Source of the DNA: Candidatus Forterrea multitransposorum CG_2015-17_Forterrea_25_41
Lineage (GTDB): Archaea; Iainarchaeota; Iainarchaeia; Iainarchaeales; CSSED10-239
Assembly: GCA_009392915.1 (NCBI GenBank)
Contig: CP045477.1
Location: 384,001-448,000, forward strand
Direction of reading: 5' to 3'
DNA length: 64,000 nt
The translations under genes were made by a program, and so were the position numbers. Of the stretch, positions 26,567-54,892 are shown piece by piece; the stretch's first letter is position 1, and every line of letters starts with the position of its first letter. The notes under the pieces were generated by a model. The model saw only the letters and a list, made by a program, of their open reading frames with translations, searched no databases and was not told the DNA's origin.

Positions 26567-27220
26567 TTAAGTATAAATTATTTTACTTTTTATAAATTTA
26601 ATTTCAAGTTTTTCTGTGCATTTAATTTTAATTATTATATTTGCACTTTTTGAAAAATTATCTGCAAAAATATTTATGTTTGAACTAATTTTATATATTT
26701 TATTTTTTTCAAATTTAATTTTAGGAAATCCAATAGGTATTTGTTTAATCATAGGTAAAATATTTCCATTTATATTTACACTTCCTTCAAAAAAATTAAA
26801 TAAATCTAAATAATGCAATTCATTTTTAGATAAATTAAAATTTTCTTTACCTTCAGAACATTTACCTTTATGAGTTGCACTCCAGACAAAATAATTAGGA
26901 TCAAAAGGATATATTTTTTTATTATTCAATTTTATTTCATTACATTTAATTTTAATATTGTTTATTGCTATTGAACCTATATTTATTACTTTTATTCTAA
27001 AATAAATTAAATTACAACTTGAACCATCATGTTGATTAATATAAATTTTATTAATCTTATGAACACAGTTAACATCATCTAAATCAATTTTAATTTTTGG
27101 TTTTTTAATAAAATTAATAATATCTTCTTTAAATAATGCAACAACTACTGCACATAGAGTTAAAAAAGCCATAATTATTTGAATAATTGAATCTAAATTA
27201 TTTTCAACCATCAATACCAT
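26567..27220 (-). CDS. Single-pass membrane protein, last gene of the R-M operon (overlaps hsdR stop by 17 bp)
   Basis: An N-terminal TM helix is followed by a beta-rich, Cys-containing ectodomain. IYFRIKVINIGSIAINNIKIK resembles IYFYLSNVGQRPTTIKKM in the 34397..34879 product. Confidence 0.4.
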   Translation of the reverse strand: MVLMVENNLDSIIQIIMAFLTLCAVVVALFKEDIINFIKKPKIKIDLDDVNCVHKINKIYINQHDGSSCNLIYFRIKVINIGSIAINNIKIKCNEIKLNNKKIYPFDPNYFVWSATHKGKCSEGKENFNLSKNELHYLDLFNFFEGSVNINGNILPMIKQIPIGFPKIKFEKNKIYKISSNINIFADNFSKSANIIIKIKCTEKLEIKFIKSKIIYT

Positions 27221-30200
27221 CTCTACAAATTCTTTCTGCTTGTTCTAAAACCAATTTTACTGCTTCTGCTTGCATATCAGGAGGATAACCATACTTTGAA
27301 AGAATTCTCTTAACCAAAACTCTTATCTTTGCTCTTTCAGTTTCTCTAATTTCCCAATCAACGCTTGTTGTATTCTTTTTAATAGTATCTGTTAAAATTT
27401 TTGCAATAACAACTATTTGTTTATCCCCTAAAACATCTAAAGCACTTTTATTATTTGAAAGAGCATCATAAAAAGCAACTTCATCTTCGGATAAATCAAG
27501 TTCTTCACCTTTCTTTTCAGAAGCTTTAATTTCTTTTGCAATTTTTAATAGTTCTTCAATAACTTCAACAGTTGTTATACTTCTATTAGTATATAATTTA
27601 ATAATATTTTCAATCATTTCCTTAAAAGATCTTTGTTTTACAATATTTTTTCTAAATCTGGATTTAATTTCATCATTAAGAAGTTTTCTATACATCTCTA
27701 ATGCTAAATTCTTTTGAGGTAAATTTTTAATTTCAAGCATAAATTCTTCAGAAAGTATAGAAATATCTGGTCTTTTAAGTCCTGCAACTTTTAAAACATC
27801 CATAATTCCAGAAGACATTATTGATTTTGAAATTAATTGATTTAAATTTTGTTCTAAAAGCTCAGTTTGAGAAATATTTCTAGTAACAGTATTTTTTACA
27901 AACTGTGATTTAATTGCTTGGAAAAATGCAATTTCTTCTTTTAAATCTAAAGCTCTTTTATCAGGAACTGCTAAAGAGAATGCTCTTAAAAGATTAATAG
28001 TTGCATCAATAAATCTTTTTTTACCATCTTCTTGTTTTAATATATGTTCCATTGCATTAATTAAAAGCTTCATTCTATAATTTGTGTCTTTATTTTCTAA
28101 ATCATATTCAAACTTATATAATAAAGATTTAACAACATCATATTTATTTAATAATAAATTTACTGCTTCTTCTTGATTAATTCCAACCTTTTGTTGATCT
28201 TTTGGAGAATAATTACCTAAGGCTTCTTTTAATTGAGTAAGTATACTTATATAATCTACAATTAATCCACCTTGTTTTTCTCCAAAAACTCTATTTACTC
28301 TTGCAATTGCTTGCATTAAATTATGGTCTTTCATTGGTTTATCAATATACATTGTATGAAGAGAAGGAACATCAAAACCAGTAAGCCACATATCTCTTAC
28401 AATTACAAGTTTAATCTCTGAAGAAGGATCTTTAAAAACATCTCCAATTTCTCTTCTTTTTTCTGAATTTCTAATATGTCTTTGCCAGTCTAAAGGGTCA
28501 GTTGCGTTACCAGTCATTATTACCTTTAAAAATCCTTTTTTATCATCTTCGTTATCCCACTCTGGTTTAATTTTTATTATTTCATTATATAAATCTACAC
28601 ATATTCTTCTAGACATACAAACAATAATACCTTTTCCTGGCATTCCTAGTTGTCTTTCTTGGAAATGATTTATTATATCTTTTGCAATTTCTTTAATTCT
28701 TTCAGGATGACCTATTATTTTTTCAATTCTTGCCCATTTACTTTTTAATTGTTCTTTTGTATCTTTTTCTTCAGTTTCTGTTACATATTCAAAATCTTTA
28801 TCTAAAGTTATTTGAGATTCTGGATTTAAAGATATTTTTGCAAGTCTACTTTCATAGTAAATAGGAACTGTCATTTTATCTTCAACAGCTTTACTGATAT
28901 CATAAACATCTACATTTTCTCCAAATACATTTCTTGTACTTTTATCACTTTTTTCAATTGGAGTTCCTGTAAAACCAATATAGGTTGCATTTGGAAGAGC
29001 ATCTCTTAGGTTTTTTGCAAAACCTTCTAAAAAACCATATTGTGATCTATGTGCTTCATCAACAATAACAACTATATTTTCTCTATTTGATAGTTCTGGA
29101 TAAACTTCTCCTTTATTTTCTGATGAAAATTTTTGAATTGTTGAAAAAATAACTCCTCCAGAAGATACTTGTAATAGTCTTTTAATTTCTTCTCTATCTT
29201 CTGCTTGTTTTGGATCTTGTCTTAAAACATCTTTACATTTTGAAAATGTTGTGAAAAGTTGATCATCTAGTTCGTTTCTATCTGTTAAAACTAATAAAGT
29301 TGGATTGTTTAGTTGTTGTATAACTTTTCCTGAATAGAAAAGCATGGTTAATGATTTTCCTGAACCTTGAGTATGCCAAACAACACCTGCTCTTTTATCT
29401 TTTCCTTTAACAGCTTTAATTGTTGAAGATACTGCATTGTTTGTTGCATTATATTGATGATATGCTGCTATTTTTTTAATAGTTTTATCTTTATCTGCTT
29501 CATAGACTATAAAATTGTTTATTAAGTCTAATAATGTTTCTTTATTTAACATTCCTCTTATTAAAACTTCTAATTGTGTTAAATAAGAGGCTTGATCTTT
29601 ATATATTGTTTTCCAGATCATGAATCTATCTAGATTTGAAGAAATTGTTCCAACTCTTGTGTCTGTTCCGTCTGAAATTACTAAAATTTGATTATAGTTA
29701 AAGATTGTTGGAATTTCTTGTTTGTATGTTTGTAATTGGTTGTATGCTTTTTTAATATCTGCATTTTCATCTGTTGGATTTTTTAATTCTATTAAAACAA
29801 CTGGTATTCCATTTATAAATAAAATAATGTCTGGTCTTCTGGTATGTTCAGTTTCTTTAATTGTAAATTGGTTTAATGCTATAAATTCATTATTGTTTAT
29901 GTTATCTTTGTCTATTAAGTTTATTTTTATCCATTTTAGGTTTCCATTTATTCTTGTTTGAACGGTTATTCCTTCTGTTAGATATTTGTAAATTTGTTTG
30001 TTGTTTTCTATTAGTTTTTGTGATTCTATTCTTTGTAGTTTTTTAATAGCTTCTTGTTTTGCATCTTCAGGAAGATTTGGGTTTATATCACTTATTTTTC
30101 TTTTTAAAGTTTCATTTAAGAGCACTTGTGAGAAATCATCTCTTTCTGGTCTTTGGCTATCTGGAGCTATGTCTACTCCATTAAGTTTAGTGTAACCTAT

Positions 30201-30260
30201 TTCTTCAAACCAAGAAAGTGCTTGGTTTTCCACATCTCCTTCTCTTAAAAATGATGTCAT
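27204..30260 (-). CDS. hsdR: Type I restriction enzyme R subunit (HsdR)
   Basis: SF2 helicase motifs TQGSGKS (I) and VVIVDEAHRSQ (II, DEAH) are present. The N-terminal nuclease region and C-terminal HsdR domain follow, over about 1018 aa. Confidence 0.9.
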   Translation of the reverse strand: MTSFLREGDVENQALSWFEEIGYTKLNGVDIAPDSQRPERDDFSQVLLNETLKRKISDINPNLPEDAKQEAIKKLQRIESQKLIENNKQIYKYLTEGITVQTRINGNLKWIKINLIDKDNINNNEFIALNQFTIKETEHTRRPDIILFINGIPVVLIELKNPTDENADIKKAYNQLQTYKQEIPTIFNYNQILVISDGTDTRVGTISSNLDRFMIWKTIYKDQASYLTQLEVLIRGMLNKETLLDLINNFIVYEADKDKTIKKIAAYHQYNATNNAVSSTIKAVKGKDKRAGVVWHTQGSGKSLTMLFYSGKVIQQLNNPTLLVLTDRNELDDQLFTTFSKCKDVLRQDPKQAEDREEIKRLLQVSSGGVIFSTIQKFSSENKGEVYPELSNRENIVVIVDEAHRSQYGFLEGFAKNLRDALPNATYIGFTGTPIEKSDKSTRNVFGENVDVYDISKAVEDKMTVPIYYESRLAKISLNPESQITLDKDFEYVTETEEKDTKEQLKSKWARIEKIIGHPERIKEIAKDIINHFQERQLGMPGKGIIVCMSRRICVDLYNEIIKIKPEWDNEDDKKGFLKVIMTGNATDPLDWQRHIRNSEKRREIGDVFKDPSSEIKLVIVRDMWLTGFDVPSLHTMYIDKPMKDHNLMQAIARVNRVFGEKQGGLIVDYISILTQLKEALGNYSPKDQQKVGINQEEAVNLLLNKYDVVKSLLYKFEYDLENKDTNYRMKLLINAMEHILKQEDGKKRFIDATINLLRAFSLAVPDKRALDLKEEIAFFQAIKSQFVKNTVTRNISQTELLEQNLNQLISKSIMSSGIMDVLKVAGLKRPDISILSEEFMLEIKNLPQKNLALEMYRKLLNDEIKSRFRKNIVKQRSFKEMIENIIKLYTNRSITTVEVIEELLKIAKEIKASEKKGEELDLSEDEVAFYDALSNNKSALDVLGDKQIVVIAKILTDTIKKNTTSVDWEIRETERAKIRVLVKRILSKYGYPPDMQAEAVKLVLEQAERICRDGIDG

Positions 30261-32140
30261 AATTTATCACAATTATTATTTTTAATAAAAACATATAATC
30301 TTTTTATTAATTCTTGAGTAATATTTGGTAAATCATTAAATTTTATTTCTTTATCAGTCATATATTTAATTGATTTTTTTGAAAATTCTAATTTAGAATT
30401 TATTTTTTTATATTTATTTGTATCTTGAATTGAATTAAATAAACTTGAATCTATTTTGTTATCTACAAATATATTTTGCCCTAATTCATCAGGAGTAAAA
30501 ACTTTATCTTTAAAACTAAAAATGTCATTAAAAATTTCACAAGGCAACAAATATTCTATTTCTTTATGATATGCCCAAAAATTAGAAGGTAAATTTTCAG
30601 ATAATATTTTTAATCTATTTCCTTTAATATTAATTTTTGGTTCAATAACATCATTTTCTGAATCTATAGATAAATATTTTTTACCAGTTAAAGGGTTATA
30701 ACCATCATTATCAGCAATAATAAAATTATTTTTATTAATTGCATCTACAGTAATTTTTAAATTATCTTCAATATCTAAAAAGTTAAAATGAACAATATTG
30801 CCTCCACCATATTCAATAAAAGAATAGTGTTTATCTTCATTAAATTTAATTAAACTTGAATCTGAATCAAAATATAATTCCAAATATTTTTTAATATATA
30901 GTCTATCAGATATCCCTTCTACCCAAATAATACAATTAGATAAAAATACAGATGAGTTACGTACTTCGAGTAAATCTAAAATATCCTTATTTTGAGTAGT
31001 ATTTTTAATTACAAAATTACTATTGTTTTTTTCAAATGAATAAATAGATTTATTATTATAATCAAGTGTAATATCTAAAAGATGATTGGAATGTGTAGTT
31101 ATAAATATTTGTGCATTTTTTGCAAATTCACTATTATATACTTCTAATAATTTTCTTTGCATCCCTGGATGTAATGTTAATTCTGGTTCTTCAATAAATA
31201 TTAATAAATTTTCATTAAAATATTTAAATAATGGAAAAGTACATATCATAATAGTCTGTAATCCATCTCCAAGTTCATAAATAGGTCTTTCAACATCATC
31301 AATTTGTATATACAGTACATCAGAATTAATATTAGGAATTAAATTTATGTGCCTATCATTAAAAAAAGATTTACTTAGAAAATCTTCATAATTTTTTATT
31401 AAATTTCTTTCTTTTTGACTTCCTAATAGCATTTTTTTAATATCCTCATATAAAGATAATCCTGTAAATATAAAACAATTGGGATATTTTGTATTAAAAT
31501 CAATAATATATTTATCAGAGTGATTTTCATTAAAATAATCGTATTTTGTTCTATCTTGATAACAATCAAAATCATTAAATAAAAAAGATTCACTAATTAA
31601 TTTTGATTTTTCATCAGAAGAATCATTTCTAATTATTGGTCTAAGACCTCTTAACATAGGAATATATAAATAAGTATATTTTTGATCTAATCCAACTGTT
31701 AGTTCATCTTTAGTTTTAATAAATTTATCTATAAATAGAGCTAATTCATTTGTTTTAATATTACCATTATAAGTAGTGACATCTCCATTAGTTGAAGTCT
31801 TTATATTTGTTTTAATTTCGTCGTGAAATTTTAAAGAAATAGACAGGTCAGAAACATATTCTATATCTTTATATTTTAAAGGAATATTTAACACTTCAGT
31901 ATTAGGTAATTTATCTATATTAGGATATTTTCTAATTAATTCTTTAGAAATATTTTCATACATATTATATACTTCTAAGGTTTTTACTGTATTATAAGTA
32001 GTTTTTTTACTAAATATATGTCTTAATAATCTACTCTTTCCAGAATTATTTCCACCTACAAAAATATTTAGTTTTGATAAACTATTAATAGTATCTGGAT
32101 AACCTTCAAAATTTAATTTAATATTTTTAATTAATTCCAT
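30257..32140 (-). CDS. OLD-family ATP-dependent nuclease (ABC-type ATPase plus Toprim), embedded between hsdS and hsdR
   Basis: Walker A is IFVGGNNSGKSRLL. Walker B and H-loop are LLIFIEEPELTLHP. The Toprim Glu is in CIIWVEGISDRLYI and the Toprim DxD is FIIADNDGYNP. Translationally coupled (ATGA overlaps) on both sides. Confidence 0.7.
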   Translation of the reverse strand: MELIKNIKLNFEGYPDTINSLSKLNIFVGGNNSGKSRLLRHIFSKKTTYNTVKTLEVYNMYENISKELIRKYPNIDKLPNTEVLNIPLKYKDIEYVSDLSISLKFHDEIKTNIKTSTNGDVTTYNGNIKTNELALFIDKFIKTKDELTVGLDQKYTYLYIPMLRGLRPIIRNDSSDEKSKLISESFLFNDFDCYQDRTKYDYFNENHSDKYIIDFNTKYPNCFIFTGLSLYEDIKKMLLGSQKERNLIKNYEDFLSKSFFNDRHINLIPNINSDVLYIQIDDVERPIYELGDGLQTIMICTFPLFKYFNENLLIFIEEPELTLHPGMQRKLLEVYNSEFAKNAQIFITTHSNHLLDITLDYNNKSIYSFEKNNSNFVIKNTTQNKDILDLLEVRNSSVFLSNCIIWVEGISDRLYIKKYLELYFDSDSSLIKFNEDKHYSFIEYGGGNIVHFNFLDIEDNLKITVDAINKNNFIIADNDGYNPLTGKKYLSIDSENDVIEPKINIKGNRLKILSENLPSNFWAYHKEIEYLLPCEIFNDIFSFKDKVFTPDELGQNIFVDNKIDSSLFNSIQDTNKYKKINSKLEFSKKSIKYMTDKEIKFNDLPNITQELIKRLYVFIKNNNCDKL

Positions 32141-33432
32141 TAATATTTCACCCTTATTTTTCCAGACATTAATTTAGGTAATAATAAATCTCTTATTTCA
32201 GATAATTTCTTATTTTGCCTTTTATTTTCTGAAATTTTAATAAATGTACTTCTGATCATTGAATTATATTTTTTCAATATTTCATTTGATGGATTCAATA
32301 TCTGTATTTTCTGAATGTTTTCATTATTAATTGCTTGCATTGTTGTACCATTACATAAGTTATTTTTTATTATTTCAAAATCATCATTTAATACAAAATT
32401 CCAAATATAATACAAAGCATTTTCTTTTATGTCTAACCCAGCAAATCCAGTAGATAAAATTAAATTTTCTAATTCCCAAGCGCTATACTTATCAAAATAA
32501 GTTATTTTTTTACTATTTTTCATTTTAGCAAACCACACTGTATTCTCTTTAGGTTGCATATTTGCTCTTGATGGTCTTTTTATAAATGTAATTTTAGTAT
32601 TATAATTTATTATTTCAGAATTATCTATATCTGCAGTTGCAACATATGTTTTTTCATCAAAGTCTTCTGTACCAACCTTTGTAAAAGACGTTAGATTATT
32701 GTCTCCTAAATGCCCAACATCCCATCCTTTAGGTATTTCTTTTTTTAATTCTTTATTATAAACCATTTCTCCTCCACTAGATTTATAAGGTTCTCCTTTT
32801 TCATTTGGAAATTCAAAATCAACAAACCATCTTTTAAATAAAGTTTTTCCTATTTCTTCAAGTGTTTGATTCATTTTTCTGTTTAGTTCTATTTTTTCAT
32901 CTAAATCAGAAAGGATTTTTGCAATTTTTAACATTTCATTATTATTTTTTGGAACTATAACTAGTAATTTTTTAATATCCCCTAAACTAAGTGTTTTTTG
33001 TGTAGAACCACCAACATTTTTTTCAATTTGATTTAAAATATATTTAGAATTTAAGGCATAATATAAAAAATAACTGTTTATATTCGGGTTAATTATCACC
33101 GTATTTTGCCCTAAACAAAATAATTCTGTTGTATTTACAAAACTTGTAATTCCATATGTTCCAACCCTAGTCATTATGATATCATTTTGCTTTGGGATAT
33201 AATTTTTAGTAAATTCATCATAAATAGATTTAGTAACTTTTAATGTATTTGATAAATCTAAACTACCTGATTTCACATCAGTTACTCTTACCATTGATAT
33301 TCCTTTATTAACATAAATTGGAGTTTTATGACAAGAATCAATAACTATAGATATATCATTTAATGATTTAACGTCCCAATCTTTAGGAATTAATCCAATT
33401 TCTGTTTTTTTAAATTTTATTTTATTAATCAT
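32140..33432 (-). CDS. hsdS: Type I restriction-modification specificity subunit (HsdS), two target-recognition domains
   Basis: The conserved central and C-terminal coiled-coil blocks (LSDLDEKIELNRKMNQTLEEIGKTLFKRWFVDFEFP ... LSEIRDLLLPKLMSGKIRV) are typical of HsdS. Confidence 0.85.
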   Translation of the reverse strand: MINKIKFKKTEIGLIPKDWDVKSLNDISIVIDSCHKTPIYVNKGISMVRVTDVKSGSLDLSNTLKVTKSIYDEFTKNYIPKQNDIIMTRVGTYGITSFVNTTELFCLGQNTVIINPNINSYFLYYALNSKYILNQIEKNVGGSTQKTLSLGDIKKLLVIVPKNNNEMLKIAKILSDLDEKIELNRKMNQTLEEIGKTLFKRWFVDFEFPNEKGEPYKSSGGEMVYNKELKKEIPKGWDVGHLGDNNLTSFTKVGTEDFDEKTYVATADIDNSEIINYNTKITFIKRPSRANMQPKENTVWFAKMKNSKKITYFDKYSAWELENLILSTGFAGLDIKENALYYIWNFVLNDDFEIIKNNLCNGTTMQAINNENIQKIQILNPSNEILKKYNSMIRSTFIKISENKRQNKKLSEIRDLLLPKLMSGKIRVKY

Positions 33433-34400
33433 AATATTTCCAATTTATGTTCTGAATTAACAATTTCATAAAAATCATTAATATAAGTAATTATGTTTAA
33501 ATATATCGTATTATTTTTTACATCTGATACTTCTATGTGAGAAGTTATTTCAAAAATAGATCCTGTTCTTGTTTCTTCAGGAATATTAATATTCTCAGAA
33601 TACTCTAAAATTCTAAAATTTTTAATTTTAACTTTATCTTCTCCAATTTCAATTTGATTTAATTTAGACATATAATCATTAATATAACTTTTAAAATCAT
33701 ATGAATTGCTAAATTCCTCAATTGAATTAATAAAATTTTCTTCAGGATAAATATTATCTAATTTAATAAATAAACCATCACCTATCGGTTCTATAACTAT
33801 ATCTTTATTAAATAACTCTTTAAATTCTAATGCACAATTTTTATTAAATCCTAAATCCCTTGTAATTAAAAATACATTTTCATAATCATCAAAATCTTGA
33901 GATAATATTGTCTCCCATATCAAGGCATCTTTAAAACCAGAATCAGATTTTTTATCTTTATTAAAAGGAGACTTTTTTTCTAATGCTCTTATTTTTAGAT
34001 CATTAAATTTTTGAAAAATTAAATCATCAGAAATTTTTAAAATTTTTATTTTGTTTTCAAAAATATAATTTCCAATTTTATCCAAAATAAAATCTTTTAT
34101 ATTAAAATCATCTGAAATTTTAAATAAGTTAATTTTCGAATCAATATAAGCATATCTTTTTTTAATGTCACCTAATTTTCTGCTATCGGATTTAAAACAA
34201 TCTCTTCTTTGTTTTTCTAATTCAAATAAAGTTATATCTGTTATTGATAATTTAATATATTCAAACAAATTTTTTTTAAAAATATAATCATACAATTTTT
34301 TAAAATCATTATTAAATGTAAAAGTATGATAATAAATATTATCACTACTATTTTCTTTTAACACATTTGTATCAAAAATAATTATTGTTTTTGGCATCAT
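33429..34400 (-). CDS. PIN-like domain protein (uncharacterised), first gene of the insert between hsdS and hsdM
   Basis: PIN-like acidic positions are present: IIIFDTNVL (D), TLFELEK (E), DALIWETIL (D/E) and FLITRDLGF (D). An extra C-terminal domain of about 130 aa follows. Start and stop overlap neighbours by 4 bp. Confidence 0.4.
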   Translation of the reverse strand: MMPKTIIIFDTNVLKENSSDNIYYHTFTFNNDFKKLYDYIFKKNLFEYIKLSITDITLFELEKQRRDCFKSDSRKLGDIKKRYAYIDSKINLFKISDDFNIKDFILDKIGNYIFENKIKILKISDDLIFQKFNDLKIRALEKKSPFNKDKKSDSGFKDALIWETILSQDFDDYENVFLITRDLGFNKNCALEFKELFNKDIVIEPIGDGLFIKLDNIYPEENFINSIEEFSNSYDFKSYINDYMSKLNQIEIGEDKVKIKNFRILEYSENINIPEETRTGSIFEITSHIEVSDVKNNTIYLNIITYINDFYEIVNSEHKLEIL

Positions 34401-34879
34401 TTAAAATCAAATATTTTCTTTTTATTAGAATAATTAATTATTATTTTATATTTTAAATTGTTTTCTAAATTCATCTCTTTTTCAAAATTTTCTTTTGAAC
34501 TATAATTTAATTTAACTAATATTTTATCAGTGTGATTTGGTTGTAATAGAAATGGAAATATAACTGGTTTATATGATGGTAGAGGATAACTTGTTTTTAA
34601 ACCAACACCCAAACTTACAGATTCAGATACATTCAAATAAACTGAATTAGGCATAAATTTAGTTTTATTATGATATAATTCCATCTTCTTAATTGTAGTT
34701 GGTCTTTGACCAACATTACTTAAATAAAAATAAATCCAAATTTCATTTTCATCCATCTTAACTTCTAAAACTTCTTTTTCAACATATAATTTAGGTTTAT
34801 TTTTACTTTCTATATAAAAAGATAATAATATACCTAATATTGCAACTATTAAACCCAATATACTAATTATATATTCCAT
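34397..34879 (-). CDS. Small single-pass membrane protein (N-terminal TM plus beta-rich domain), RM-embedded
   Basis: MEYIISILGLIVAILGILLSFYI is the TM helix. It has weak similarity to the 26567..27220 product. Confidence 0.4.
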   Translation of the reverse strand: MEYIISILGLIVAILGILLSFYIESKNKPKLYVEKEVLEVKMDENEIWIYFYLSNVGQRPTTIKKMELYHNKTKFMPNSVYLNVSESVSLGVGLKTSYPLPSYKPVIFPFLLQPNHTDKILVKLNYSSKENFEKEMNLENNLKYKIIINYSNKKKIFDFK

Positions 34880-35370
34880 TAGTTATCATTTTTCTTTTTA
34901 AACTTTCTAATTAATGCTAATAATAGTTCTTGTTTAAAAAATATTATACTTAGTAATTCTATACCAAAAGCAATATTTAAAACAACAGATAATTTAAAAT
35001 TATTAATTATTGTTTTGTAAATACTTATTTGACTATTTTCTATATTTTCAAATTTTTGATTTAAATTAGTTATTTGATACTGTATAATATTATAATCATT
35101 TTTTATTTCTTCAAAATCTTTTTTAGTTATATTTTCTGTTATTAATTTGTTATAGTCAGACTGACAATTTTTTAGTTGTGAACTAATCTGTATTATATTG
35201 TTATTTAATGTAATTTTATTTAATTCACAATTATTTAATTTATCTACAATAGGTTTACATTTATCCTCTGATAATAAACCAAACAATCCTTGTATAATTG
35301 GAATAAATATCATCACAATTATAAACACAACTAAAATACCTCCAATTATTGCAAATGGATTATCCGCCAT
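34879..35370 (-). CDS. Small membrane protein with N- and C-terminal TM helices flanking a coiled-coil segment, RM-embedded
   Basis: AIIGGILVVFIIVMIFIPII is the N-terminal TM and VVLNIAFGIELLSIIFF the C-terminal TM. The middle is heptad-like and N/Q/K/E-rich. Confidence 0.4.
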   Translation of the reverse strand: MADNPFAIIGGILVVFIIVMIFIPIIQGLFGLLSEDKCKPIVDKLNNCELNKITLNNNIIQISSQLKNCQSDYNKLITENITKKDFEEIKNDYNIIQYQITNLNQKFENIENSQISIYKTIINNFKLSVVLNIAFGIELLSIIFFKQELLLALIRKFKKKNDN

Positions 35371-35372
35371 AT

Positions 35373-36890
35373 CTATTTCACCTCAAAGCCGATTCCTTTA
35401 AGATTTTTCTTAATCTCTTCTTCTAATTTCTTAGATTCTTTAAATTGTTCGCTTAATTCTTTTGTAAGGCGAGTCATCTTTTCTTGAAAAACTTCAGGAT
35501 CTTCCTCTTCTTCCTTAAAACCAACGTAACGGCCAGGTGTAAGAATAAAGTCTTGCTTTTCAATCTCTTCAAGAGAGGCTGATTTACAAAAAGAAAGCTC
35601 ATCTTGATAACTTTTTTTGTTTATCGGGTCTTTTGACCTCCAAAGAGAAACAGTTTCTGAAATTTTTGTAAAATCTTCTTCAGTGAGTTCTCTTTGTCTT
35701 CTGTTAATCATTTGTCCAAGATTTCTAGCATCAATAAAAAGAGTTTCTCCTTTTCTATGTGCAGGTTTATTTCTATTAACAAACCAAAGACAAGCAGGAA
35801 TCATTGTATTATAAAATAATTGAGATGGAAGAGCAATAATACACTCTACAAGATCATCTTTAAGTATATTTTTTCTAATTTCTCCTTCTCCAGAAGTATT
35901 AGAACTTAAAGAACCGTTTGAAAGAACAAAACCAGCAATTCCTTTAGATCCTAAATGATAAATAAAATGTTGAACCCATGCAAAATTAGCGTTCCCTGCA
36001 GGAGGAACTCCATATTTCCAACGAGCATCCTCTCTTAATAGATCTCCAGACCAGTCTGAATCATTAAAAGGAGGATTTGCAATTATAAAATCAGCTCTTA
36101 AGTCTTTATGTTCATCATTTAGAAAACTACCTTCATTATTCCAAACAACTTTATTATCAATACCTCTTATTGCAAGATTCATTTTACATAATTTCCAAGT
36201 TGTTTGATTAGATTCTTGACCATAAATAGATATTTGACCTATTTTTCCACCATGTTTTTCAACAAACTCTTCAGATTGAACAAACATTCCTCCAGAACCA
36301 CAACAAGGGTCAAATATTCTTCCTTTAAAAGGTTGTATTATTTCAACTAATAATTTAACAATAGATTTAGGAGTATAGAATTGGCCTCCTTTTTTTCCTT
36401 CAGCAGAAGCAAATTGTCCTAAGAAATATTCATATACTCTTCCTAAGATATCTTTACTATTATCTTTAGAATTAAAAGAAATTGTTCCTATAAGATCAAT
36501 TAACGCTCCTAATTTTGTTTTATCTAAAGATGGTTTTGAATAATCTTTTGGAAGTATTCCTTTAAGTGTTGGATTTTCTTTTTCAATTAAATCCATTGAA
36601 TCATCAATAATTCTTCCAATTTCTATATTTTTTGCATTATCTTGAAGATATTCCCATCTTGCTTTTTTTGGAACATAAAATACTCTTTGAGAGACATATT
36701 CATCTTTATCTTCTGGGTCTGCATATTCTTCTTCTTTTAGTTTAGTATATAGTTCTTCAAAAGAATCAGATATATATTTTAAAAATATTAAACCTAAAAC
36801 TACATGTTTATATTCTGCAGCATCCATATTACTTCTTAATTTATCTGCTGCTTTCCAAAGCTTTTCTTCAAATCCTAAATCTTGAGTCAT
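35373..36890 (-). CDS. hsdM: Type I restriction-modification DNA N6-adenine methyltransferase (HsdM)
   Basis: The HsdM N-terminal domain is present. Motif I is [13 protein letters not shown] and motif IV is IIANPPFN. Confidence 0.9.
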
Positions 36891-36960
36891 AATTAATCTC
36901 TTCTTTTATATAAATATAATATACATCTAAACACTTTTAAAGGTATTATGTATTAAAAAA

Positions 36961-37347
36961 CTATTCAAATCTAATCTCTTTTCTATCATCTTCTATTGCT
37001 TGTTTTATTTTATTATATTCTTCTTCACTTAACTCTATTATATTACTATAAGTATAATCTTCCTTTGCAAGCTTAAATCTTTCTTGTAAAGAACGTGCAC
37101 CAAGACCTTTATTAGATAAAAGTAATAAAGAAAGTTTAATCTGATAAGGATATGGTTTTTTCCAAGAAGTAAATTCATTGTCTACTTTTTTAATAACTTT
37201 AAATATTCCAAAAATTACTCCTTGACCATAATATACAATAATATCATCTAAATTAACTAAATCTCTTTCATTTTTGTCTATAAAACCACAATATTCTTTT
37301 GTTTTAACAAAAGATTCCCAAGAATGGTTAATTAAGTAATATTTCAT
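36961..37347 (-). CDS. PUA-like EVE-domain protein (tentative)
   Basis: A 128-aa protein starting MKYYLINHSWESF..., with DDIIVYYGQGVIFGIFKV resembling the EVE beta-barrel core. It lies 70 bp upstream of the hsdM start. Confidence 0.35.
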   Translation of the reverse strand: MKYYLINHSWESFVKTKEYCGFIDKNERDLVNLDDIIVYYGQGVIFGIFKVIKKVDNEFTSWKKPYPYQIKLSLLLLSNKGLGARSLQERFKLAKEDYTYSNIIELSEEEYNKIKQAIEDDRKEIRFE

Positions 37348-37349
37348 TT

Positions 37350-38729
37350 TTAATCATATCTAAATCCATATTTTTCAGTTAATTTTTGCCATTCATCATG
37401 ATATTTTTTCCATTCATTATATTCAAATTCATCTAATACCTGGCCAGAACCATAACTATCTAATTTATTTTGCAAAAATTTTAATCTCAAATTATCATCA
37501 TATTCTTCTTTAACACTTTCAAAAGATTTACCTTCAGAAACAACATAAATATTTGGCTTTGAAATTAATTTACCTACTCCAATATAATCTCCATCACTAT
37601 CTGTAATAATACTTGGAGTTGTTGTTTCTATAAAACAATAACCAGAATTATTATAAGAATATTTAATTGGGCATTTTAATCCTATTGAAGCATGCTGCTC
37701 TAATTCAAAACTAAAAATTGCAACACCATAACCTAACTCTTTTAACATTAATGCAAGTAAATTTGTTTTATCCCCACAAACTCCTGTTTGATCATATAAT
37801 GTTTCATAAGCATATCTATTACTATAATTATGATTAAAAGAATCCCAATCATAAGGCATTGTTTGAACTAAACTGATTGCAATCCTTGCTTGATCATCAG
37901 TATTATTTGTTATTTTTTTAATTTCATTAATTAATGGTAGAATATATCTTTCTTGATCTTCAGTATTAACATACATTAATGACATATATTCAGAAGTAGG
38001 AGGAGATTCATAAGAAGAATAAGTTACTGTTCGAGGTAAATTTGACAAATAATAATTAAACCCATTATAGACAGTGTAATTAAAACTATTAGGTACACCT
38101 CTTAGAGTATAATTTAACTTAATTGGCTTAGGTTCAGTTTGCAATTTATGTAAACACTTCCCATTAATATAAATTTCATCTATATCACATAAACATTTTT
38201 CAGGAAACTCAATTAAATTACCTTTCTGACAAAAATAAGGCTTAATATTTGAACAATTATTATATAAAGTACCATCTTCACACCTATTAATAACAAAATT
38301 AAATAATAAATTCATAATTATATAAATTAGAATAATAATAATAACAATATTTCTTAATTGTTTAAATCTAATTTTTTTAAGTAAATGAATAACTAAAGTT
38401 AAAATTAAACTATTTAGTAAAATTATTATAAAAAAGTTAAAACTAACCTTTAATAATAGATAATTAAAACTTAATAAAATAATAACATAAACTAAAGTCC
38501 ATATAAATAAATAAAAATTAAATCTAAATTTATTTTTATAAATTATAACAGTTATTATGCGTGAAAATAAACTAAATATGATTGCTATAAATACTAATTT
38601 AGTGGTATTATTAACAATATTTAATAAATTTAAAAATAAAGAAGATAAATAATATAATAGACTATAAATTAATATCCAAAATAGAAACCAGTAAGATTTA
38701 TAAAATCTAAAAATATTATTATTTCTCAT
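37350..38729 (-). CDS. Polytopic membrane protein with C-terminal transglutaminase-like cysteine-protease domain
   Basis: About six N-terminal TM helices and a Cys-rich linker precede the domain. GVCGDKTNLLALMLKELGYGVAIF (Cys), EQHASIGL (His) and CFIETT follow. Confidence 0.45.
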   Translation of the reverse strand: MRNNNIFRFYKSYWFLFWILIYSLLYYLSSLFLNLLNIVNNTTKLVFIAIIFSLFSRIITVIIYKNKFRFNFYLFIWTLVYVIILLSFNYLLLKVSFNFFIIILLNSLILTLVIHLLKKIRFKQLRNIVIIIILIYIIMNLLFNFVINRCEDGTLYNNCSNIKPYFCQKGNLIEFPEKCLCDIDEIYINGKCLHKLQTEPKPIKLNYTLRGVPNSFNYTVYNGFNYYLSNLPRTVTYSSYESPPTSEYMSLMYVNTEDQERYILPLINEIKKITNNTDDQARIAISLVQTMPYDWDSFNHNYSNRYAYETLYDQTGVCGDKTNLLALMLKELGYGVAIFSFELEQHASIGLKCPIKYSYNNSGYCFIETTTPSIITDSDGDYIGVGKLISKPNIYVVSEGKSFESVKEEYDDNLRLKFLQNKLDSYGSGQVLDEFEYNEWKKYHDEWQKLTEKYGFRYD

Positions 38730-38746
38730 TTTATCACATTAATATT

Positions 38747-39094
38747 TCAATGTCTTTTTTTAATTGATCTTTTAGAAATATTAGAACTTCTATATCTTAC
38801 AGGTTTACTTTTTCTATAAGAATCTTTTAAAACAGAATCACTTTCATTTTTTAAATCATGAATAGTTGGTTCTTTATAACCTAACTGCTTTAAAGCAGAA
38901 TCAAATATCTTTGTAAAGCTTAAGTTATTCTCTTGTACAAATCTTTCTTGACTTTTTGTAATTCTCATATTTATTCTTATATTTCTTCTTTCTGGAGAAG
39001 TATCTCTTTTTACATCTTCTATATTCATATAAATCAATCCCTTAAATACACTTTTCCCAATCAAGAGCATAGTGTATATACAACTTTGACACAA
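38747..39094 (-). CDS. Small basic protein, possibly ribbon-helix-helix DNA-binding (true start probably the internal Met at MNIEDVK...)
   Basis: RNIRINMRITKSQERFVQENNLSFTKIFDSALKQL fits a beta-alpha-alpha RHH pattern. Weak. Confidence 0.3.
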   Translation of the reverse strand: MCQSCIYTMLLIGKSVFKGLIYMNIEDVKRDTSPERRNIRINMRITKSQERFVQENNLSFTKIFDSALKQLGYKEPTIHDLKNESDSVLKDSYRKSKPVRYRSSNISKRSIKKRH

Positions 39095-39164
39095 CGAGTT
39101 TATAAATAGATCGATTACACTAAAATATAATAAAAAGAGAAGATTAAAAAATAAATCTTATCTA

Positions 39165-39890
39165 CTAAACTTTAATCTCTATTAAAACAGGATTATGGTC
39201 ACTAAATCTTCTAATTTCATCATTTTCAAGAACTTTGCAAGAAATAATGTTTTTAAAAATAGGTTTATTCATAAAAAAGTAATCATTTTGCCACTTAACT
39301 TTACTTTTTTTATGTCTTAAGGTCTGTACAGGATATTCTTTATCAGTTAAATCAAAAGCATCAAAAAAATTAAAATCTTTTAATCTATCAAAAAAAATCT
39401 TATGAGAGTTATTATATTTATATATTAAATCAAATTGAATACTTGCATTTAAATCTCCCCCCAATATAATATTTCTTTTACCATTAAGTTTACCATAAAA
39501 CAAAGGAGATAAATCAGATAACATGCTATGTAGATTAGGAATTGAATAACCATCTGTCATAAGACCATATAATGATATAAAAGTAAGTTTTTTATTATTT
39601 ATAACAGTATTTGCTATTGTTAAAGATCCATTAAATTTAGTATTTATTGTTTCCTGAGAAAGATTGTATTTTTTACTATAAATTCCAGATCCCCAATTAC
39701 GATTTTTATCAATTTTATTCCAAATAAGATTTGAATCTTTTTTAATATGTTCAGGAGGATTTGATTCTTGAAATAAATATATATCTGCATCAATATTATT
39801 TAAAAAATAATCCCAAATATCTTTATTTAGCTTTTTATTTTTCCAATAATCCATATTCCAAGTAACTATTTTAATATTCATTCTTATCAA
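39165..39890 (-). CDS. Endonuclease/exonuclease/phosphatase (EEP) family protein
   Basis: IVTWNMDYW, FQESNP, GGDLN and SDHNPV match conserved EEP catalytic blocks. Confidence 0.7.
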   Translation of the reverse strand: MIRMNIKIVTWNMDYWKNKKLNKDIWDYFLNNIDADIYLFQESNPPEHIKKDSNLIWNKIDKNRNWGSGIYSKKYNLSQETINTKFNGSLTIANTVINNKKLTFISLYGLMTDGYSIPNLHSMLSDLSPLFYGKLNGKRNIILGGDLNASIQFDLIYKYNNSHKIFFDRLKDFNFFDAFDLTDKEYPVQTLRHKKSKVKWQNDYFFMNKPIFKNIISCKVLENDEIRRFSDHNPVLIEIKV

Positions 39891-39898
39891 TTTTTATT

Positions 39899-40738
39899 TT
39901 AAATAACCTTCTTAATATTCTTTTCCAAGTAAACAATAAACTTATCTTTATTCTTTCCTTTTAACTTTTCCCAAGAATTATATACTTTTCTTATTTTATC
40001 TTCTAAAATAATATCTTCTTTATCATTATATCTGTATCTTGCATATTTTTCTTTATTATAACCTAACTTATATGCTAAAATATTTTCAATAGTAGATGTA
40101 AAAGTTTCACTAAATGACTGCTTTTTTATTCCACCATATTTATCTAAAATATATTTTTCAATTCTATTATATATTTCATTATTTGAATTAATTACATGAA
40201 TAAGTTCATGAATTAATAAAATATATATTCTATTTTTAGTAAATTTTCTATAATCAACATCATCTCCTATAGATATATGAAAAGATAAATTTGTTGCAGA
40301 ACCTCCAAAACCAGGCCTTGTATTATTTGCAACAAAGAAAGTAGAGCTTACTTTTGTAGAATTATAAATAACATCTAAATAAGGTTTAATTATTTTAAGT
40401 TCTTTCTCTTTAAAATTAGTTATAAATGTATTTAGAAAATCTTCTGATTTTTTATTAATAACAATAGGAAATAATTTTTTTAAAACAATTAGATGTTTTT
40501 TTTCAATATTACTTAATTTTTTTTTATTAACAATATTATCTATTAAATTTTTGTAATTAAGCCTATTTGTAGAAATAATACTATAATCTTTATTAATCAA
40601 AAAAATTAAATCTACCATTTCTTTTAATTGATTTTTATTAGCAAAAGTATAAACTTTATCAATATTACAATATGCTTTACAAGCAAGTCTTAAATCTTTT
40701 GAAGGTTTTATTAAGTTTAGTTTAATATCAACACTCAT
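39899..40738 (-). CDS. Hypothetical HExxH-motif protein (putative zinc metallopeptidase)
   Basis: ILLIHELIHVINSNNEIYN. Nothing else is diagnostic. Confidence 0.3.
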   Translation of the reverse strand: MSVDIKLNLIKPSKDLRLACKAYCNIDKVYTFANKNQLKEMVDLIFLINKDYSIISTNRLNYKNLIDNIVNKKKLSNIEKKHLIVLKKLFPIVINKKSEDFLNTFITNFKEKELKIIKPYLDVIYNSTKVSSTFFVANNTRPGFGGSATNLSFHISIGDDVDYRKFTKNRIYILLIHELIHVINSNNEIYNRIEKYILDKYGGIKKQSFSETFTSTIENILAYKLGYNKEKYARYRYNDKEDIILEDKIRKVYNSWEKLKGKNKDKFIVYLEKNIKKVI

Positions 40739-40805
40739 AAAGATATCTATTAAATAAAGGTTTTTTAAAAGTTATGTTTAATAAGGAGCTATCATAAACT
40801 AAAAA

Positions 40806-41147
40806 TTAAACATTTACCCAAATAACACAACCTTTCTTATGAACGTAAGGTTTTGGAGAAGAATATCTTTTGATATCAGACAATACCCAAGCATGAGGAT
40901 TATTATATTTTAAATCTAAAACATCTTCTTTCTTTATTTGATGCTTTTCTAAGTTTTTAAATAAAATATCTTTGTTAATTTTTATTGAATCTTTAATAGT
41001 ACATTCACCATATACTTTTTTGCTGCCACTCATAATAAGAGCAATTCTTTCACCAATCTTTGAAGTATTAAAGTTTCTTATCTCCCAAGTCTTTTTTCCT
41101 TCTAAGATTAAATTTAACCATTTTTCTTTAATTATAAGGCCTTTCAT
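40806..41147 (-). CDS. ASCH-domain (PUA-like) protein
   Basis: MKGLIIKEKWLNLILEGKKTWEIRNF...GERIALI matches the ASCH N-terminal beta-barrel signature. About 113 aa. Confidence 0.55.
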   Translation of the reverse strand: MKGLIIKEKWLNLILEGKKTWEIRNFNTSKIGERIALIMSGSKKVYGECTIKDSIKINKDILFKNLEKHQIKKEDVLDLKYNNPHAWVLSDIKRYSSPKPYVHKKGCVIWVNV

Positions 41148-41244
41148 AAAAGATATCTATATTTCAAAAGGCTTTTAAACTCTTTTATGTAGTAATTAAA
41201 CTATTTATTAAAAAACAAAAATATATCTTAATTAAGATGATAAA

Positions 41245-54314: not shown

Positions 54315-54321
54315 TTAAAAG

Positions 54322-54391
54322 TCCCCTCAACCGGATTTGAACCGATTCTAAAAGGTCTACAGCCCTTTGTGCTATCATTACACCATGAGGG
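54322..54391 (-). tRNA. tRNA-Tyr (anticodon GTA), about 71 nt, CCA not encoded
   Basis: The minus-strand RC is CCCCTCA-TG-GTGT-AATGATA-GCAC-A-AAGGG-CTGTAGA-CCTTT-TAGA-ATCGG-TTCAAAT-CCGGT-TGAGGGG-A. Acceptor 7/7 bp, D-stem 4 bp, anticodon stem 5 bp (one G-U), T-loop TTCAAAT. Confidence 0.75.
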
Positions 54392-54892
54392 GTTTTTTCT
54401 TCTTTAATATTTCTTCTTTTTAAAAAAATAAAAAAAGAGGTCATCTTTTATCCTCTAAGTCTCACCATCTTCTTTCTCAAATCATCTGTATCCATAGCTA
54501 TGCTTATAAGGTTATTTTTTAAAAGCCTACTCAGGTTATGCCTAAGCGTTCTATCAGATATATTCAATGATTGATTTAATTGAGAAATAGAAATTGACTC
54601 ACGACTAGATAACTCTTCTAATATCTTTTTAGATGTTTTTGTAATAGGGACACTGGGTTTTTATCCTTTTAACATCACTTAAAACCCAACACCTTTTATC
54701 GTCGTTCATAAATAAGTAAATAAAGAGAAAAGCTTTTAAAGACAAAGAAAGTGGCAATTATTTAATTTTGTCCAAGAAATATAGAAATTACCTTTATAGA
54801 GAAAAATACATAAAGTTTATATATATTATGTTTATACTATATAAATATATTATATATATGAAAACTTATAAACAAACGAGGTAGACTTAAAA

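What the first reader, a model, noticed from the sequence alone, without database searches (positions are those of the whole stretch)
30257..32140. OLD-family (ABC ATPase plus Toprim) nuclease sitting in the 'prrC position' between hsdS and hsdR
The 627-aa protein has Walker A (GGNNSGKS), a Walker B/H-loop block (IFIEEPELTLHP), a Toprim Glu (WVEGISD) and Toprim DxD (ADNDGY). This is the P2 Old / GajA-like architecture. Its stop overlaps the hsdR start and its start overlaps the hsdS stop. In E. coli prr, the latent anticodon nuclease PrrC (also an ABC-ATPase fusion) sits between hsdS and hsdR and is held silent by the R-M complex. A Toprim nuclease in the equivalent slot suggests an analogous R-M-guarded suicide nuclease.
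Basis: partly seen in the sequence, partly recalled or inferred. Interest (0 to 1): 0.7.

Follow-up and report, generated by a model that had tools for sequence, protein, structure and literature searches.

The report
OLD nuclease nested in restriction operon
A real OLD-family (ATPase plus Toprim) defence nuclease gene sits between hsdS and hsdR of an intact type I restriction operon, but it looks like one of many swappable cargo genes in that slot, not a nuclease built to be held in check by the restriction enzyme as PrrC is.

Summary
[quoted passage not shown] All catalytic residues are conserved. Its start overlaps the hsdS stop by 1 nt and its stop overlaps the hsdR start by 4 nt.

The PrrC-like interpretation is only partly supported.
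- The family is stand-alone. Of about 98 homolog contexts (80 genomes, 6 metagenomic, 12 viral), none is inside an intact type I R-M operon. This includes the closest homolog at 56% identity.
- One homolog (Pontibacter) lies in a decayed hsd locus. One (Planococcus) lies next to an R-M operon on the opposite strand.
- No partner gene is conserved, and no UvrD helicase is present. This fits Class 1 OLD.
- Orthologous hsd operons (HsdR 49-93% identical) have an empty hsdS-hsdR slot or unrelated cargo there. In the closest relative, DNA homology breaks exactly at the hsdS stop and resumes 34 nt before the hsdR start.
- The window protein has no extra domain compared with stand-alone relatives.

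Most likely this is an autonomous Class 1-type OLD abortive-infection nuclease carried as cargo in a known kind of hotspot, co-expressed with R-M. A guardian role that senses R-M inhibition is possible but untested. Novelty: new member of a known kind.

The parts
30257..32140 (-). OLD-family nuclease gene, 627 aa (the finding)
   Evidence: ORF call. Pfam, PADLOC and PDB matches. Structure models and fold searches.
30971..32140 (-). N-terminal ABC ATPase region, about residues 1-390. Walker A K35, Walker B E317/E318, D-loop H324, H-loop H350.
30260..30958 (-). C-terminal Toprim plus helical region, residues 395-627. Metal-binding residues E408, D412, D477, D479, E527, E529, plus invariant K583.
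   Evidence: The spacing of these residues matches the P2 OLD residues E398/E402, D453/D455 and D541/E543 listed in PMC7049728. Invariance. The domain model matches OLD C-terminal crystal structures first.
32140..33432 (-). hsdS, 430 aa, two target-recognition domains
   Evidence: Pfam Methylase_S. PADLOC Specificity_I E 5e-92, full length.
27204..30260 (-). hsdR, 1018 aa, intact
   Evidence: HSDR_N, SWI2_SNF2, T1R_D3-like and T1RH-like_C domains. TIGR00348 E 1e-198. PADLOC REase_I covers 6-1011.
35373..36890 (-). hsdM, 505 aa, first gene of the operon
   Evidence: HsdM_N plus N6_Mtase (E 4e-111).
33429..35370 (-). Second cargo block, nested between hsdM and hsdS: a 163-aa membrane/coiled-coil protein, a 160-aa membrane protein and a 323-aa PIN_12 protein
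   Evidence: ORFs abut or overlap. PIN_12 E 3e-11. A PIN homolog (43% identity) sits in the same slot in L089.
26567..27220 (-). 217-aa ORF with an N-terminal hydrophobic segment, overlapping the hsdR stop by 17 nt; last gene of the string
   Evidence: No family match.
30261..30294 (-). Last 34 nt of the OLD gene. This stretch is conserved upstream of hsdR in sister operon L088, where the cargo is different. It marks the right-hand boundary of the exchangeable cassette.
   Evidence: blastn break points: L088 1297-4325 matches window 30294-27267 at 92.5% identity. The left-hand homology ends at 32142, the hsdS stop.
36907..36914 (-). TTTAWATA (archaeal TATA-like) element 24 nt upstream of the hsdM ATG; candidate operon promoter
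   Evidence: It is the only such element within 150 nt upstream of any of the eight gene starts except one 102 nt before the 160-aa ORF. None precedes OLD, hsdS or hsdR. This is a pattern match only.

Best explanation
The gene encodes a catalytically intact OLD-family nuclease of the stand-alone, Class 1 kind. An ABC ATPase controls a two-metal Toprim nuclease. It sits as exchangeable cargo in the hsdS-hsdR junction of an intact type I R-M operon on the chromosome of an AT-rich, probably archaeal, organism.

Shown:
- the fold, the motifs and the gene overlaps;
- that the family normally lives alone, including on viral contigs;
- that the same slot in orthologous operons is empty or holds unrelated genes, with DNA homology breaking exactly at the cargo boundaries.

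Inferred:
- The gene is transcribed from the hsdM promoter and translationally coupled to hsdS and hsdR, so cells make it together with the restriction enzyme.
- It acts on its own as a second-line, abortive-infection-type effector. On an infection cue its ATPase licenses the Toprim nuclease to cut either tRNA anticodon stems (as P2 OLD and PARIS AriB do) or DNA (as V. cholerae OLD and Ts OLD do).
- Nesting gives co-regulation and co-inheritance with R-M, not control of the nuclease by the R-M complex.
For: Identity.

Stand-alone family:
- The closest homolog P0002 (56% identity) lies in a defence island next to a SLFN-like helicase and GmrSD, with no hsd genes.
- P0010, P0011, P0012, P0015 and P0016 are also stand-alone.
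- Of the 80 species-representative genome loci kept from 396 tblastn-confirmed stretches, only L008 and L013 have hsd genes within 10 kb. The tblastn search used two different HsdM/HsdR families as queries.
- A Pfam census of the nearest upstream (75) and downstream (76) genes finds no family in more than 2 loci and no UvrD helicase among the listed families.
- The family also occurs on 12 IMG/VR viral contigs, none with hsd genes.

Cargo slot, seen in operons with HsdR 49-93% identical to the window:
- S-R slot empty: L091, L092, L094, L095, L098, L101.
- L088: unknown 187-aa protein. L089: unknown 422-aa protein.
- L090: ion-channel-like protein plus UPF0489 protein.
- L097: 218-aa protein. 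L099: PDDEXK_3 protein.
- L100: GajB-like UvrD helicase.
- L102: DUF4238 protein plus NTP_transf_2/PDC-M05A protein.

Clean swap: homology with L088 and L089 ends at the hsdS stop. It resumes 34 nt (L088) or 4 nt (L089) before the hsdR ATG.

No window-specific domain: the only window-specific insertions are loops of 7 and 10 residues.

Co-expression: overlaps of 1 and 4 nt, a GGGTGA Shine-Dalgarno-like sequence about 10 nt before the OLD ATG, and no TATA-like element before OLD.

Literature:
- Defence genes nested in type I R-M operons are an established pattern, and ABC ATPase-Toprim cassettes are among them (bioRxiv 10.1101/2024.01.29.577857; TgvAB, PMC11411939).
- Class 1 OLD proteins are single genes without conserved neighbours (PMC10568477).
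- P2 OLD cuts tRNA anticodon stems (PMC12445682).
- Vc OLD nicks DNA (PMC12392090).
Against: No experiment or interaction prediction was possible, so autonomy is inferred from distribution only.

The tight coupling, with both junctions overlapping, is what one would also expect for a true subunit-like partner.

OLD-family systems are known to guard other immune or repair machines: PARIS responds to the anti-restriction protein Ocr, and P2 OLD responds to RecBCD inhibition. A functional link to R-M is therefore plausible.

The family census rests on 98 contexts and on tblastn/Pfam detection of hsd genes. Very divergent R-M systems could have been missed.

The substrate (tRNA or DNA) and the trigger are unknown.
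Confidence: 0.62

Rival explanations
1. OLD is a latent suicide nuclease held silent by physical association with the HsdMSR complex. It is released when a viral anti-restriction factor disables the complex. This would be a Toprim-based analogue of PrrC/EcoprrI.
For: Same position as prrC, between hsdS and hsdR, with overlapping stop and start codons on both sides. The R-M system is intact. PrrC and PARIS are recognised 'R-M guardians' (PMC12707154).
Against: Relatives at 30-56% identity function in genomes and viruses with no hsd genes nearby. In Pontibacter the OLD gene is intact although hsdM is frameshifted and hsdR is truncated and carries an in-frame stop. That would be lethal if R-M were the antidote. 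The window protein has no added domain. The slot takes any cargo.
Confidence: 0.1
2. Guardian without a complex. OLD works on its own but its trigger is a viral anti-restriction protein or the consequence of R-M inhibition, as in PARIS. Nesting would then pair a first line of defence with its backup.
For: The OLD-family system PARIS is triggered by the anti-restriction protein Ocr and by Stp, and Gabija is reported to be triggered by Ocr (text of bioRxiv 10.1101/2024.01.29.577857; PMC12707154). The window operon would co-express both layers.
Against: Nothing in the sequence speaks to the trigger. The stand-alone distribution of the family fits any trigger. Other Class 1 OLDs respond to different cues: RecBCD inhibition for P2, and a RecBCD-independent cue for V. 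cholerae.
Confidence: 0.17
3. Gabija-like pairing. OLD uses the downstream HsdR motor as its helicase partner in place of GajB.
For: A helicase-type gene lies immediately downstream with a 4-nt overlap. This is formally the Class 2 layout. One sister operon (L100) has a GajB-like UvrD helicase in the same slot.
Against: HsdR is an SF2 R-M motor, not a UvrD/PcrA/Rep-type SF1 helicase. HsdR orthologs occur without OLD, and OLD homologs occur without any helicase.
Confidence: 0.03
4. The gene is not a defence gene here. It could be a DNA-repair-type ABC ATPase/nuclease, or a silent passenger with no current role.
For: No phenotype is known. The trigger and target are unknown. The E. coli Class 1 OLD YbjD gives phage phenotypes only when over-expressed (abstract of PMC13261556).
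Against: All ATPase and nuclease residues are intact and the ORF is full length. It lies in a defence context: R-M, a PIN cassette and a SLFN/AlbA_2 protein. Relatives lie in defence islands and on viral contigs.
Confidence: 0.05

Closest known systems
Class 1 OLD-family nucleases (P2 Old, Thermus scotoductus OLD 6p74, Vibrio cholerae OLD, E. coli YbjD)
   Same: Single polypeptide with an N-terminal ABC ATPase that has a glutamate at Walker B (IEEPE), a D-loop His and an H-loop His, exactly as in Ts OLD. C-terminal Toprim with six acidic metal ligands in the P2 OLD spacing. No conserved neighbour and no UvrD partner across the family. Also found on viral contigs.
   Different: Only distant in sequence: 6p74 E 1e-5 with the single sequence and 9e-12 with the profile, covering the ATPase core only. 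The PADLOC Old model matches residues 311-423 only. At 627 aa it is longer than Ts OLD. This copy is nested inside an R-M operon, whereas a review describes Class 1 OLDs as single genes not proximal to other defence genes (PMC10568477).
PrrC / EcoprrI (anticodon nuclease nested in a type IC R-M operon)
   Same: Same position between hsdS and hsdR, co-oriented. N-terminal ABC-type NTPase fused to a C-terminal nuclease. Likely an abortive-infection effector. P2 OLD, like PrrC, attacks tRNA anticodon arms.
   Different: The nuclease domain is Toprim, not HEPN. The ATPase is of the AAA_15/AAA_21 (OLD) type. PrrC is almost exclusively nested in type I R-M and is masked by the R-M complex. This family is almost always stand-alone.
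Defence genes nested in defence operons ('guilt by embedding': HEC-01/HEC-04 ATPase-Toprim, Gabija, PARIS, BrxU, TgvAB)
   Same: Same-strand nesting inside a multi-gene immune operon. ABC ATPase plus Toprim is among the commonest kinds of cargo. The slot is variable between related operons.
   Different: HEC-04 was described in Hma systems and is not among the top PADLOC matches here. This instance is in a probably archaeal genome, and its operon carries at least two separate cargo blocks.
Gabija GajA (Class 2 OLD) and retron Eco8 effector (Class 3 OLD)
   Same: Same two-domain fold. They are the best structural matches for the full-length model.
   Different: No GajB-type helicase, reverse transcriptase or retron ncRNA nearby. 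NCBIfam retron_eff_Eco8 scores 41 bits against a cut-off of 250.

Membership tests
OLD-family nuclease | N-terminal ABC ATPase with Walker A Lys, Walker B acidic residue, D-loop and H-loop His | tested here: met
OLD-family nuclease | C-terminal Toprim domain with a two-metal site (E, +4 acidic, DxD, D/ExE) | tested here: met
   E408, D412, D477, D479, E527 and E529 are conserved. The spacing matches the P2 OLD residues in PMC7049728. The domain model's top five PDB matches are OLD C-terminal regions at probability 0.99-1.0. Caveats: Pfam OLD-like_TOPRIM is below its cut-off at 17.4 versus 23.2 bits, and the Foldseek E-values are only about 4e-3.
OLD-family nuclease | Metal-dependent nuclease activity controlled by ATP binding or hydrolysis | not testable with these tools
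   Needs biochemistry.
Class 1 OLD | [quoted passage not shown] | tested here: met
   In the window the downstream gene is hsdR, an SF2 helicase. Across 75-76 family loci no neighbour family recurs in more than 2 loci and no UvrD family is listed. Six closer homologs are stand-alone.
Class 1 OLD | Shorter than Class 2 and lacking the Class 2 helical insert in Toprim | tested here: inconclusive
   The protein is 627 aa, longer than Ts OLD (528 aa chain). The C-terminal model matches Class 2 C-terminal regions (6nk8, 6njv) better than Ts OLD. Coordinates could not be inspected.
Class 3 OLD (retron effector) | Adjacent reverse transcriptase and retron ncRNA | tested here: not met
   Rfam finds only a tRNA in the window. 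There is no reverse transcriptase among the operon genes. NCBIfam retron_eff_Eco8 scores 41 bits against a cut-off of 250.
Gabija GajA (Class 2 OLD) | GajB-like UvrD helicase partner next door | tested here: not met
   None in the operon. None is listed among the family's neighbours.
PrrC-type R-M-guarded anticodon nuclease | C-terminal HEPN anticodon-nuclease domain | tested here: not met
   The C-terminal region is Toprim. There is no HEPN or PrrC match in Pfam or NCBIfam, or among the 25 best of 90 PADLOC matches shown.
PrrC-type R-M-guarded anticodon nuclease | Family found almost exclusively nested in type I R-M operons | tested here: not met
   Of about 98 homolog contexts, none is in an intact hsd operon. 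One is in a decayed locus (L008) and one is adjacent and divergent (L013).
PrrC-type R-M-guarded anticodon nuclease | Silenced by binding the R-M complex and released by an anti-restriction factor | not testable with these tools
   No multimer prediction or experiment was available. Indirect evidence against: no window-specific domain, and OLD is intact beside dead hsd genes in L008.
Defence cargo nested in a type I R-M operon | Same-strand gene nested between hsd genes of an otherwise complete system | tested here: met
   hsdM, hsdS and hsdR are all full length and co-oriented with overlapping junctions.
Defence cargo nested in a type I R-M operon | Slot content varies between orthologous operons | tested here: met
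   Six operons have an empty slot and seven have different cargo. Homology break points lie at the cargo edges.

The most novel reading that the evidence does not exclude
In this probably archaeal lineage the nested OLD nuclease is a true guardian of the type I R-M enzyme. It is kept inactive by, or senses the inhibition of, HsdMSR and then destroys tRNA anticodon stems or DNA. That would be an independent, Toprim-based reinvention of the PrrC logic, and a natural system in which to ask what switches Class 1 OLD nucleases on.
Probability: 0.12. Interest if true: 0.6.

Novelty: new member of a known kind. Interest (0 to 1): 0.3.

Why it matters
This is a clean, well-bounded example of two known things meeting: a Class 1-type OLD nuclease and the cargo slot inside type I R-M operons. 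It shows that the hsdS-hsdR junction of this HsdR lineage is a cassette-exchange point. Close relatives carry different, mostly uncharacterised genes there, and these are reasonable candidates for new defence genes.

It also gives a natural pairing of OLD with R-M that could be used to test whether Class 1 OLDs, whose triggers are still unclear, respond to anti-restriction. It does not by itself reveal a new mechanism.

Tried and rejected
- Sigma-70 promoter and intrinsic-terminator scan of the operon. There were 96 promoter-like sites against 97.5 expected from shuffles, and 1 terminator-like site against 1.5. This is uninformative, and the organism is probably archaeal anyway.
- GC and GC3 per gene, to date the insertion. 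All genes have GC3 of 0.06-0.13, so there is no signal.
- L008 (Pontibacter) first looked like a second 'hsdS-OLD-hsdR' case. The 574-aa neighbour is not an HsdS. hsdM is frameshifted. hsdR lacks about 82 N-terminal residues and has an in-frame TAG. It therefore counts as OLD inside a decayed R-M locus.
- Profile search of PDB sequences with the family alignment. It improved the 6p74 match to E 9e-12 but still covered only the ATPase core, so Toprim had to be shown by a separate domain model.
- HEPN idea for the sister-operon cargo, based on the motifs RNKYVH in L088 and RHNYVH in L089. There is no Pfam match even at E 10 and no similarity between the two proteins. It remains a motif-level note.
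- The 627-aa ORF upstream of hsdM in L100 was suspected to be GajA. It is QatC-like.
- The Payne et al. supplements were searched for an explicit 'Old nested in type I R-M' count. Only multi-gene cassette rows for Gabija, PARIS and HEC-01 were found.
- The window's own genome was not found in the species-representative collection. The best OLD match there was 38% identity.
Full report
**1. What is in the sequence**

The window is very AT-rich (23.8% G+C). On the minus strand, eight ORFs run from 36890 to 26567 with every junction abutting or overlapping:
- hsdM, 35373-36890, 505 aa
- a 163-aa membrane/coiled-coil ORF, 34879-35370
- a 160-aa membrane ORF, 34397-34879
- a 323-aa PIN_12 protein, 33429-34400
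- hsdS, 32140-33432, 430 aa
- the ORF of the finding, 30257-32140, 627 aa
- hsdR, 27204-30260, 1018 aa
- a 217-aa ORF, 26567-27220

HsdM, HsdS and HsdR are full length against Pfam, PADLOC and NCBIfam models. The hsdS stop and the start of the 627-aa ORF share one base (TAATG). Its stop and the hsdR start overlap as ATGA.

**2. What the protein is**

Sequence evidence:
- Pfam gives AAA_15 (4.5e-17) and AAA_21 (5.3e-16). The OLD-like_TOPRIM match is weak and below its cut-off (17.4 versus 23.2 bits).
- PADLOC GajA models align across residues 313-485. The ATPase also matches AriA, NsnB, AbiLi, PtuA and Old models at similar levels, so no single named system is singled out.
- The best solved-structure relative by sequence is the Class 1 OLD of Thermus scotoductus, 6p74. 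The E-value is 1.3e-5 with the single sequence and 9e-12 with a family profile. The alignment matches the IEEPE...LHP...THS block residue for residue.

Conservation in an alignment of 51 full-length homologs:
- Invariant: K35 (Walker A), E318, H324 (D-loop), H350 (H-loop), E408, D412, D477, E527, E529 and K583.
- At least 90% conserved: E317 and D479.
- The acidic residues have the same spacing as the metal A and metal B ligands of P2 OLD (E398/E402, D453/D455, D541/E543) listed in PMC7049728.

Structure evidence:
- The AlphaFold model of the whole protein has pLDDT 81. Its best Foldseek PDB matches are the retron Eco8 OLD effector, GajA and Ts OLD.
- The ATPase dominates those alignments, so I modelled residues 395-627 separately (pLDDT 82.5). 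The top five matches are all crystal structures of OLD C-terminal Toprim regions (6njv, 6njx, 6nk8, 6njw), with probability 0.99-1.0 and target-normalised TM 0.48-0.56. GajA comes next.

The protein is therefore an OLD-family ATPase-Toprim nuclease with an intact catalytic apparatus.

**3. Is its place in the R-M operon a property of the family?**

No.
- The closest homolog, P0002 (56% identity), lies on four contigs as a separate gene next to a SLFN-like helicase and, on the longest contig, GmrSD and a UvrD-PD-(D/E)XK protein. No hsd genes are present.
- Five further relatives at 38-44% identity are also stand-alone. Their neighbours are housekeeping genes, an integrase or small unknown ORFs.
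- A scan of species-representative genomes found 396 relatives. In the 80 loci kept, tblastn with HsdM/HsdR/HsdS from the window and from a second R-M family found hsd genes in only two.
- A Pfam census of the nearest upstream and downstream genes (75 and 76 proteins) found no family in more than two loci and no UvrD helicase among the families listed. This is the Class 1 pattern as defined in PMC7049728 and PMC10568477.
- Twelve IMG/VR viral contigs also carry the family, without hsd genes.

The two exceptions:
- In L013 (Planococcus) a type I operon lies next door on the opposite strand.
- In L008 (Pontibacter) OLD lies between hsdM and hsdR, but that R-M locus is dead. hsdM is frameshifted. 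hsdR lacks about 82 N-terminal residues and has an in-frame TAG. The 574-aa neighbour is not an HsdS. An intact OLD beside a dead R-M argues against R-M being its antidote.

**4. Is the slot special?**

Yes, but not for OLD. A metagenome scan with the window HsdR returned 32 loci. Among those with enough upstream sequence:
- The hsdS-hsdR junction is empty in six (L091, L092, L094, L095, L098, L101).
- In the others it holds unrelated cargo:
  - L088 (HsdR 93% identical): an unknown 187-aa protein
  - L089 (HsdR 76% identical): an unknown 422-aa protein
  - L090: an ion-channel-like protein plus a UPF0489 protein
  - L097: a 218-aa unknown
  - L099: a PDDEXK_3 nuclease
  - L100: a GajB-like UvrD helicase
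  - L102: DUF4238 plus an NTP_transf_2/PDC-M05A protein

At the DNA level, L088 matches the window up to the hsdS stop (32142) and again from 30294, which is 34 nt before the hsdR ATG. L089 matches up to 32142 and from 30264. The OLD gene is thus exactly the exchangeable segment.

L089 also keeps a PIN homolog (43% identity) between hsdM and hsdS, so that second slot exists in relatives too. The window OLD has no domain-sized insertion relative to its stand-alone relatives. The only window-specific stretches are two loops of 7 and 10 residues.

**5. Expression**

There is no intergenic space around OLD. A GGGTGA sequence lies about 10 nt before its ATG. The only archaeal TATA-like octamer well placed before a gene start is 24 nt upstream of hsdM, and none lies within 150 nt upstream of OLD, hsdS or hsdR. 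Co-transcription from the hsdM promoter and translational coupling are therefore likely, but this is inferred. The bacterial promoter/terminator scan was uninformative.

**6. Host**

The only tRNA in the window is a 72-nt tRNA-Tyr, which is too short to carry the long variable arm typical of bacterial tRNA-Tyr (the interpretation rests on established tRNA knowledge). A PGF-pre-PGF domain protein and a PRK13208-type ValRS are also present. Flanking genes are chromosomal, for example UvrB, ValRS and MnmA. An AT-rich archaeon is the likely host, but this was not proved.

**7. How it most likely works**

Shown: an intact OLD-type ATPase-Toprim nuclease, nested and tightly coupled in an intact type I R-M operon, in a slot that swaps cargo.

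Inferred:
- It acts on its own as a second-line effector of the abortive-infection type.
- By analogy with characterised OLD proteins, ATP binding or hydrolysis licenses a two-metal Toprim nuclease. That nuclease cuts either tRNA anticodon stems (P2 OLD, PMC12445682; PARIS AriB) or DNA (V. cholerae OLD, PMC12392090; Ts OLD, PMC7049728).
- Nesting most simply provides co-regulation and co-inheritance. This is what has been proposed for other nested systems (bioRxiv 10.1101/2024.01.29.577857; TgvAB in PMC11411939).

A guardian role, in which anti-restriction triggers the nuclease, is plausible because PARIS and PrrC behave that way (PMC12707154). Nothing here tests it.

**8. Comparison with known systems, and novelty**

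- The protein meets the sequence and fold criteria of the OLD family and the genomic criterion of Class 1.
- It fails two testable criteria of the PrrC family: a HEPN nuclease domain and near-exclusive nesting in type I R-M.
- Nesting of defence genes in type I R-M operons is already described, including ABC ATPase-Toprim cassettes.

I rate it a new member of a known kind, with modest interest (0.3). The more useful by-product is the set of uncharacterised cargo genes in the same slot of sister operons.

Noticed in passing
window 33429-35370 (-): A second nested cargo block lies between hsdM and hsdS: a 163-aa membrane/coiled-coil protein, a 160-aa membrane protein and a 323-aa PIN_12 protein. 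All junctions overlap or abut. L089 keeps a PIN homolog (43% identity) in the same slot, preceded by a 386-aa membrane protein. No PADLOC match, so this may be an undescribed membrane-plus-PIN defence cassette.
   Followed up: partly
window 26567-27220 (-): A 217-aa ORF with an N-terminal hydrophobic segment overlaps the hsdR stop by 17 nt. It has no match in Pfam, PADLOC or NCBIfam and seems to be the last gene of the operon.
   Followed up: no
L088:765-1328 and L089:5050-6318: The two closest sister operons (HsdR 93% and 76% identical) carry unknown proteins of 187 and 422 aa in the hsdS-hsdR slot. Both have an Rx4H motif (RNKYVH, RHNYVH) of the kind seen in HEPN RNases. There is no Pfam match even at E 10, and the two proteins show no similarity to each other.
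   Followed up: partly
L100:8061-10004 and L100:2664-4547: Another orthologous operon has a lone GajB-like UvrD helicase (PADLOC GajB E 1e-47) in the hsdS-hsdR slot, with no GajA detected. A QatC-like protein is encoded just upstream of hsdM.
   Followed up: partly
L008:6584-14687 (Pontibacter oryzae): A decayed type I R-M locus. hsdM is frameshifted. hsdR lacks about 82 N-terminal residues and has an in-frame TAG at 12278. It still encloses an intact OLD homolog and an unknown 574-aa protein.
   Followed up: yes
window 36961-42603 (-): The genes upstream of the operon also look defence-related or unusual: a 452-aa SLFN/AlbA_2 + HATPase_c_4 + HTH protein (41245-42603), an Exo_endo_phos protein (39165-39890), a 459-aa multi-pass membrane protein with a weak transglutaminase-core match (37350-38729), and a 128-aa ORF without matches (36961-37347).
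   Followed up: partly
window 54321-54392 (-) and 54893-57400 (+): A 72-nt tRNA-Tyr (too short for the long variable arm typical of bacterial tRNA-Tyr) and a PGF-pre-PGF domain protein point to an archaeal host with about 24% G+C. The host genome is not in the species-representative collection searched.
   Followed up: partly
L102:397-2069: One sister operon has DUF4238 (PADLOC DUF4238-Pers) plus a wHTH-nucleotidyltransferase (PDC-M05A) in the slot. This shows that candidate defence families already catalogued use the same junction.
   Followed up: no
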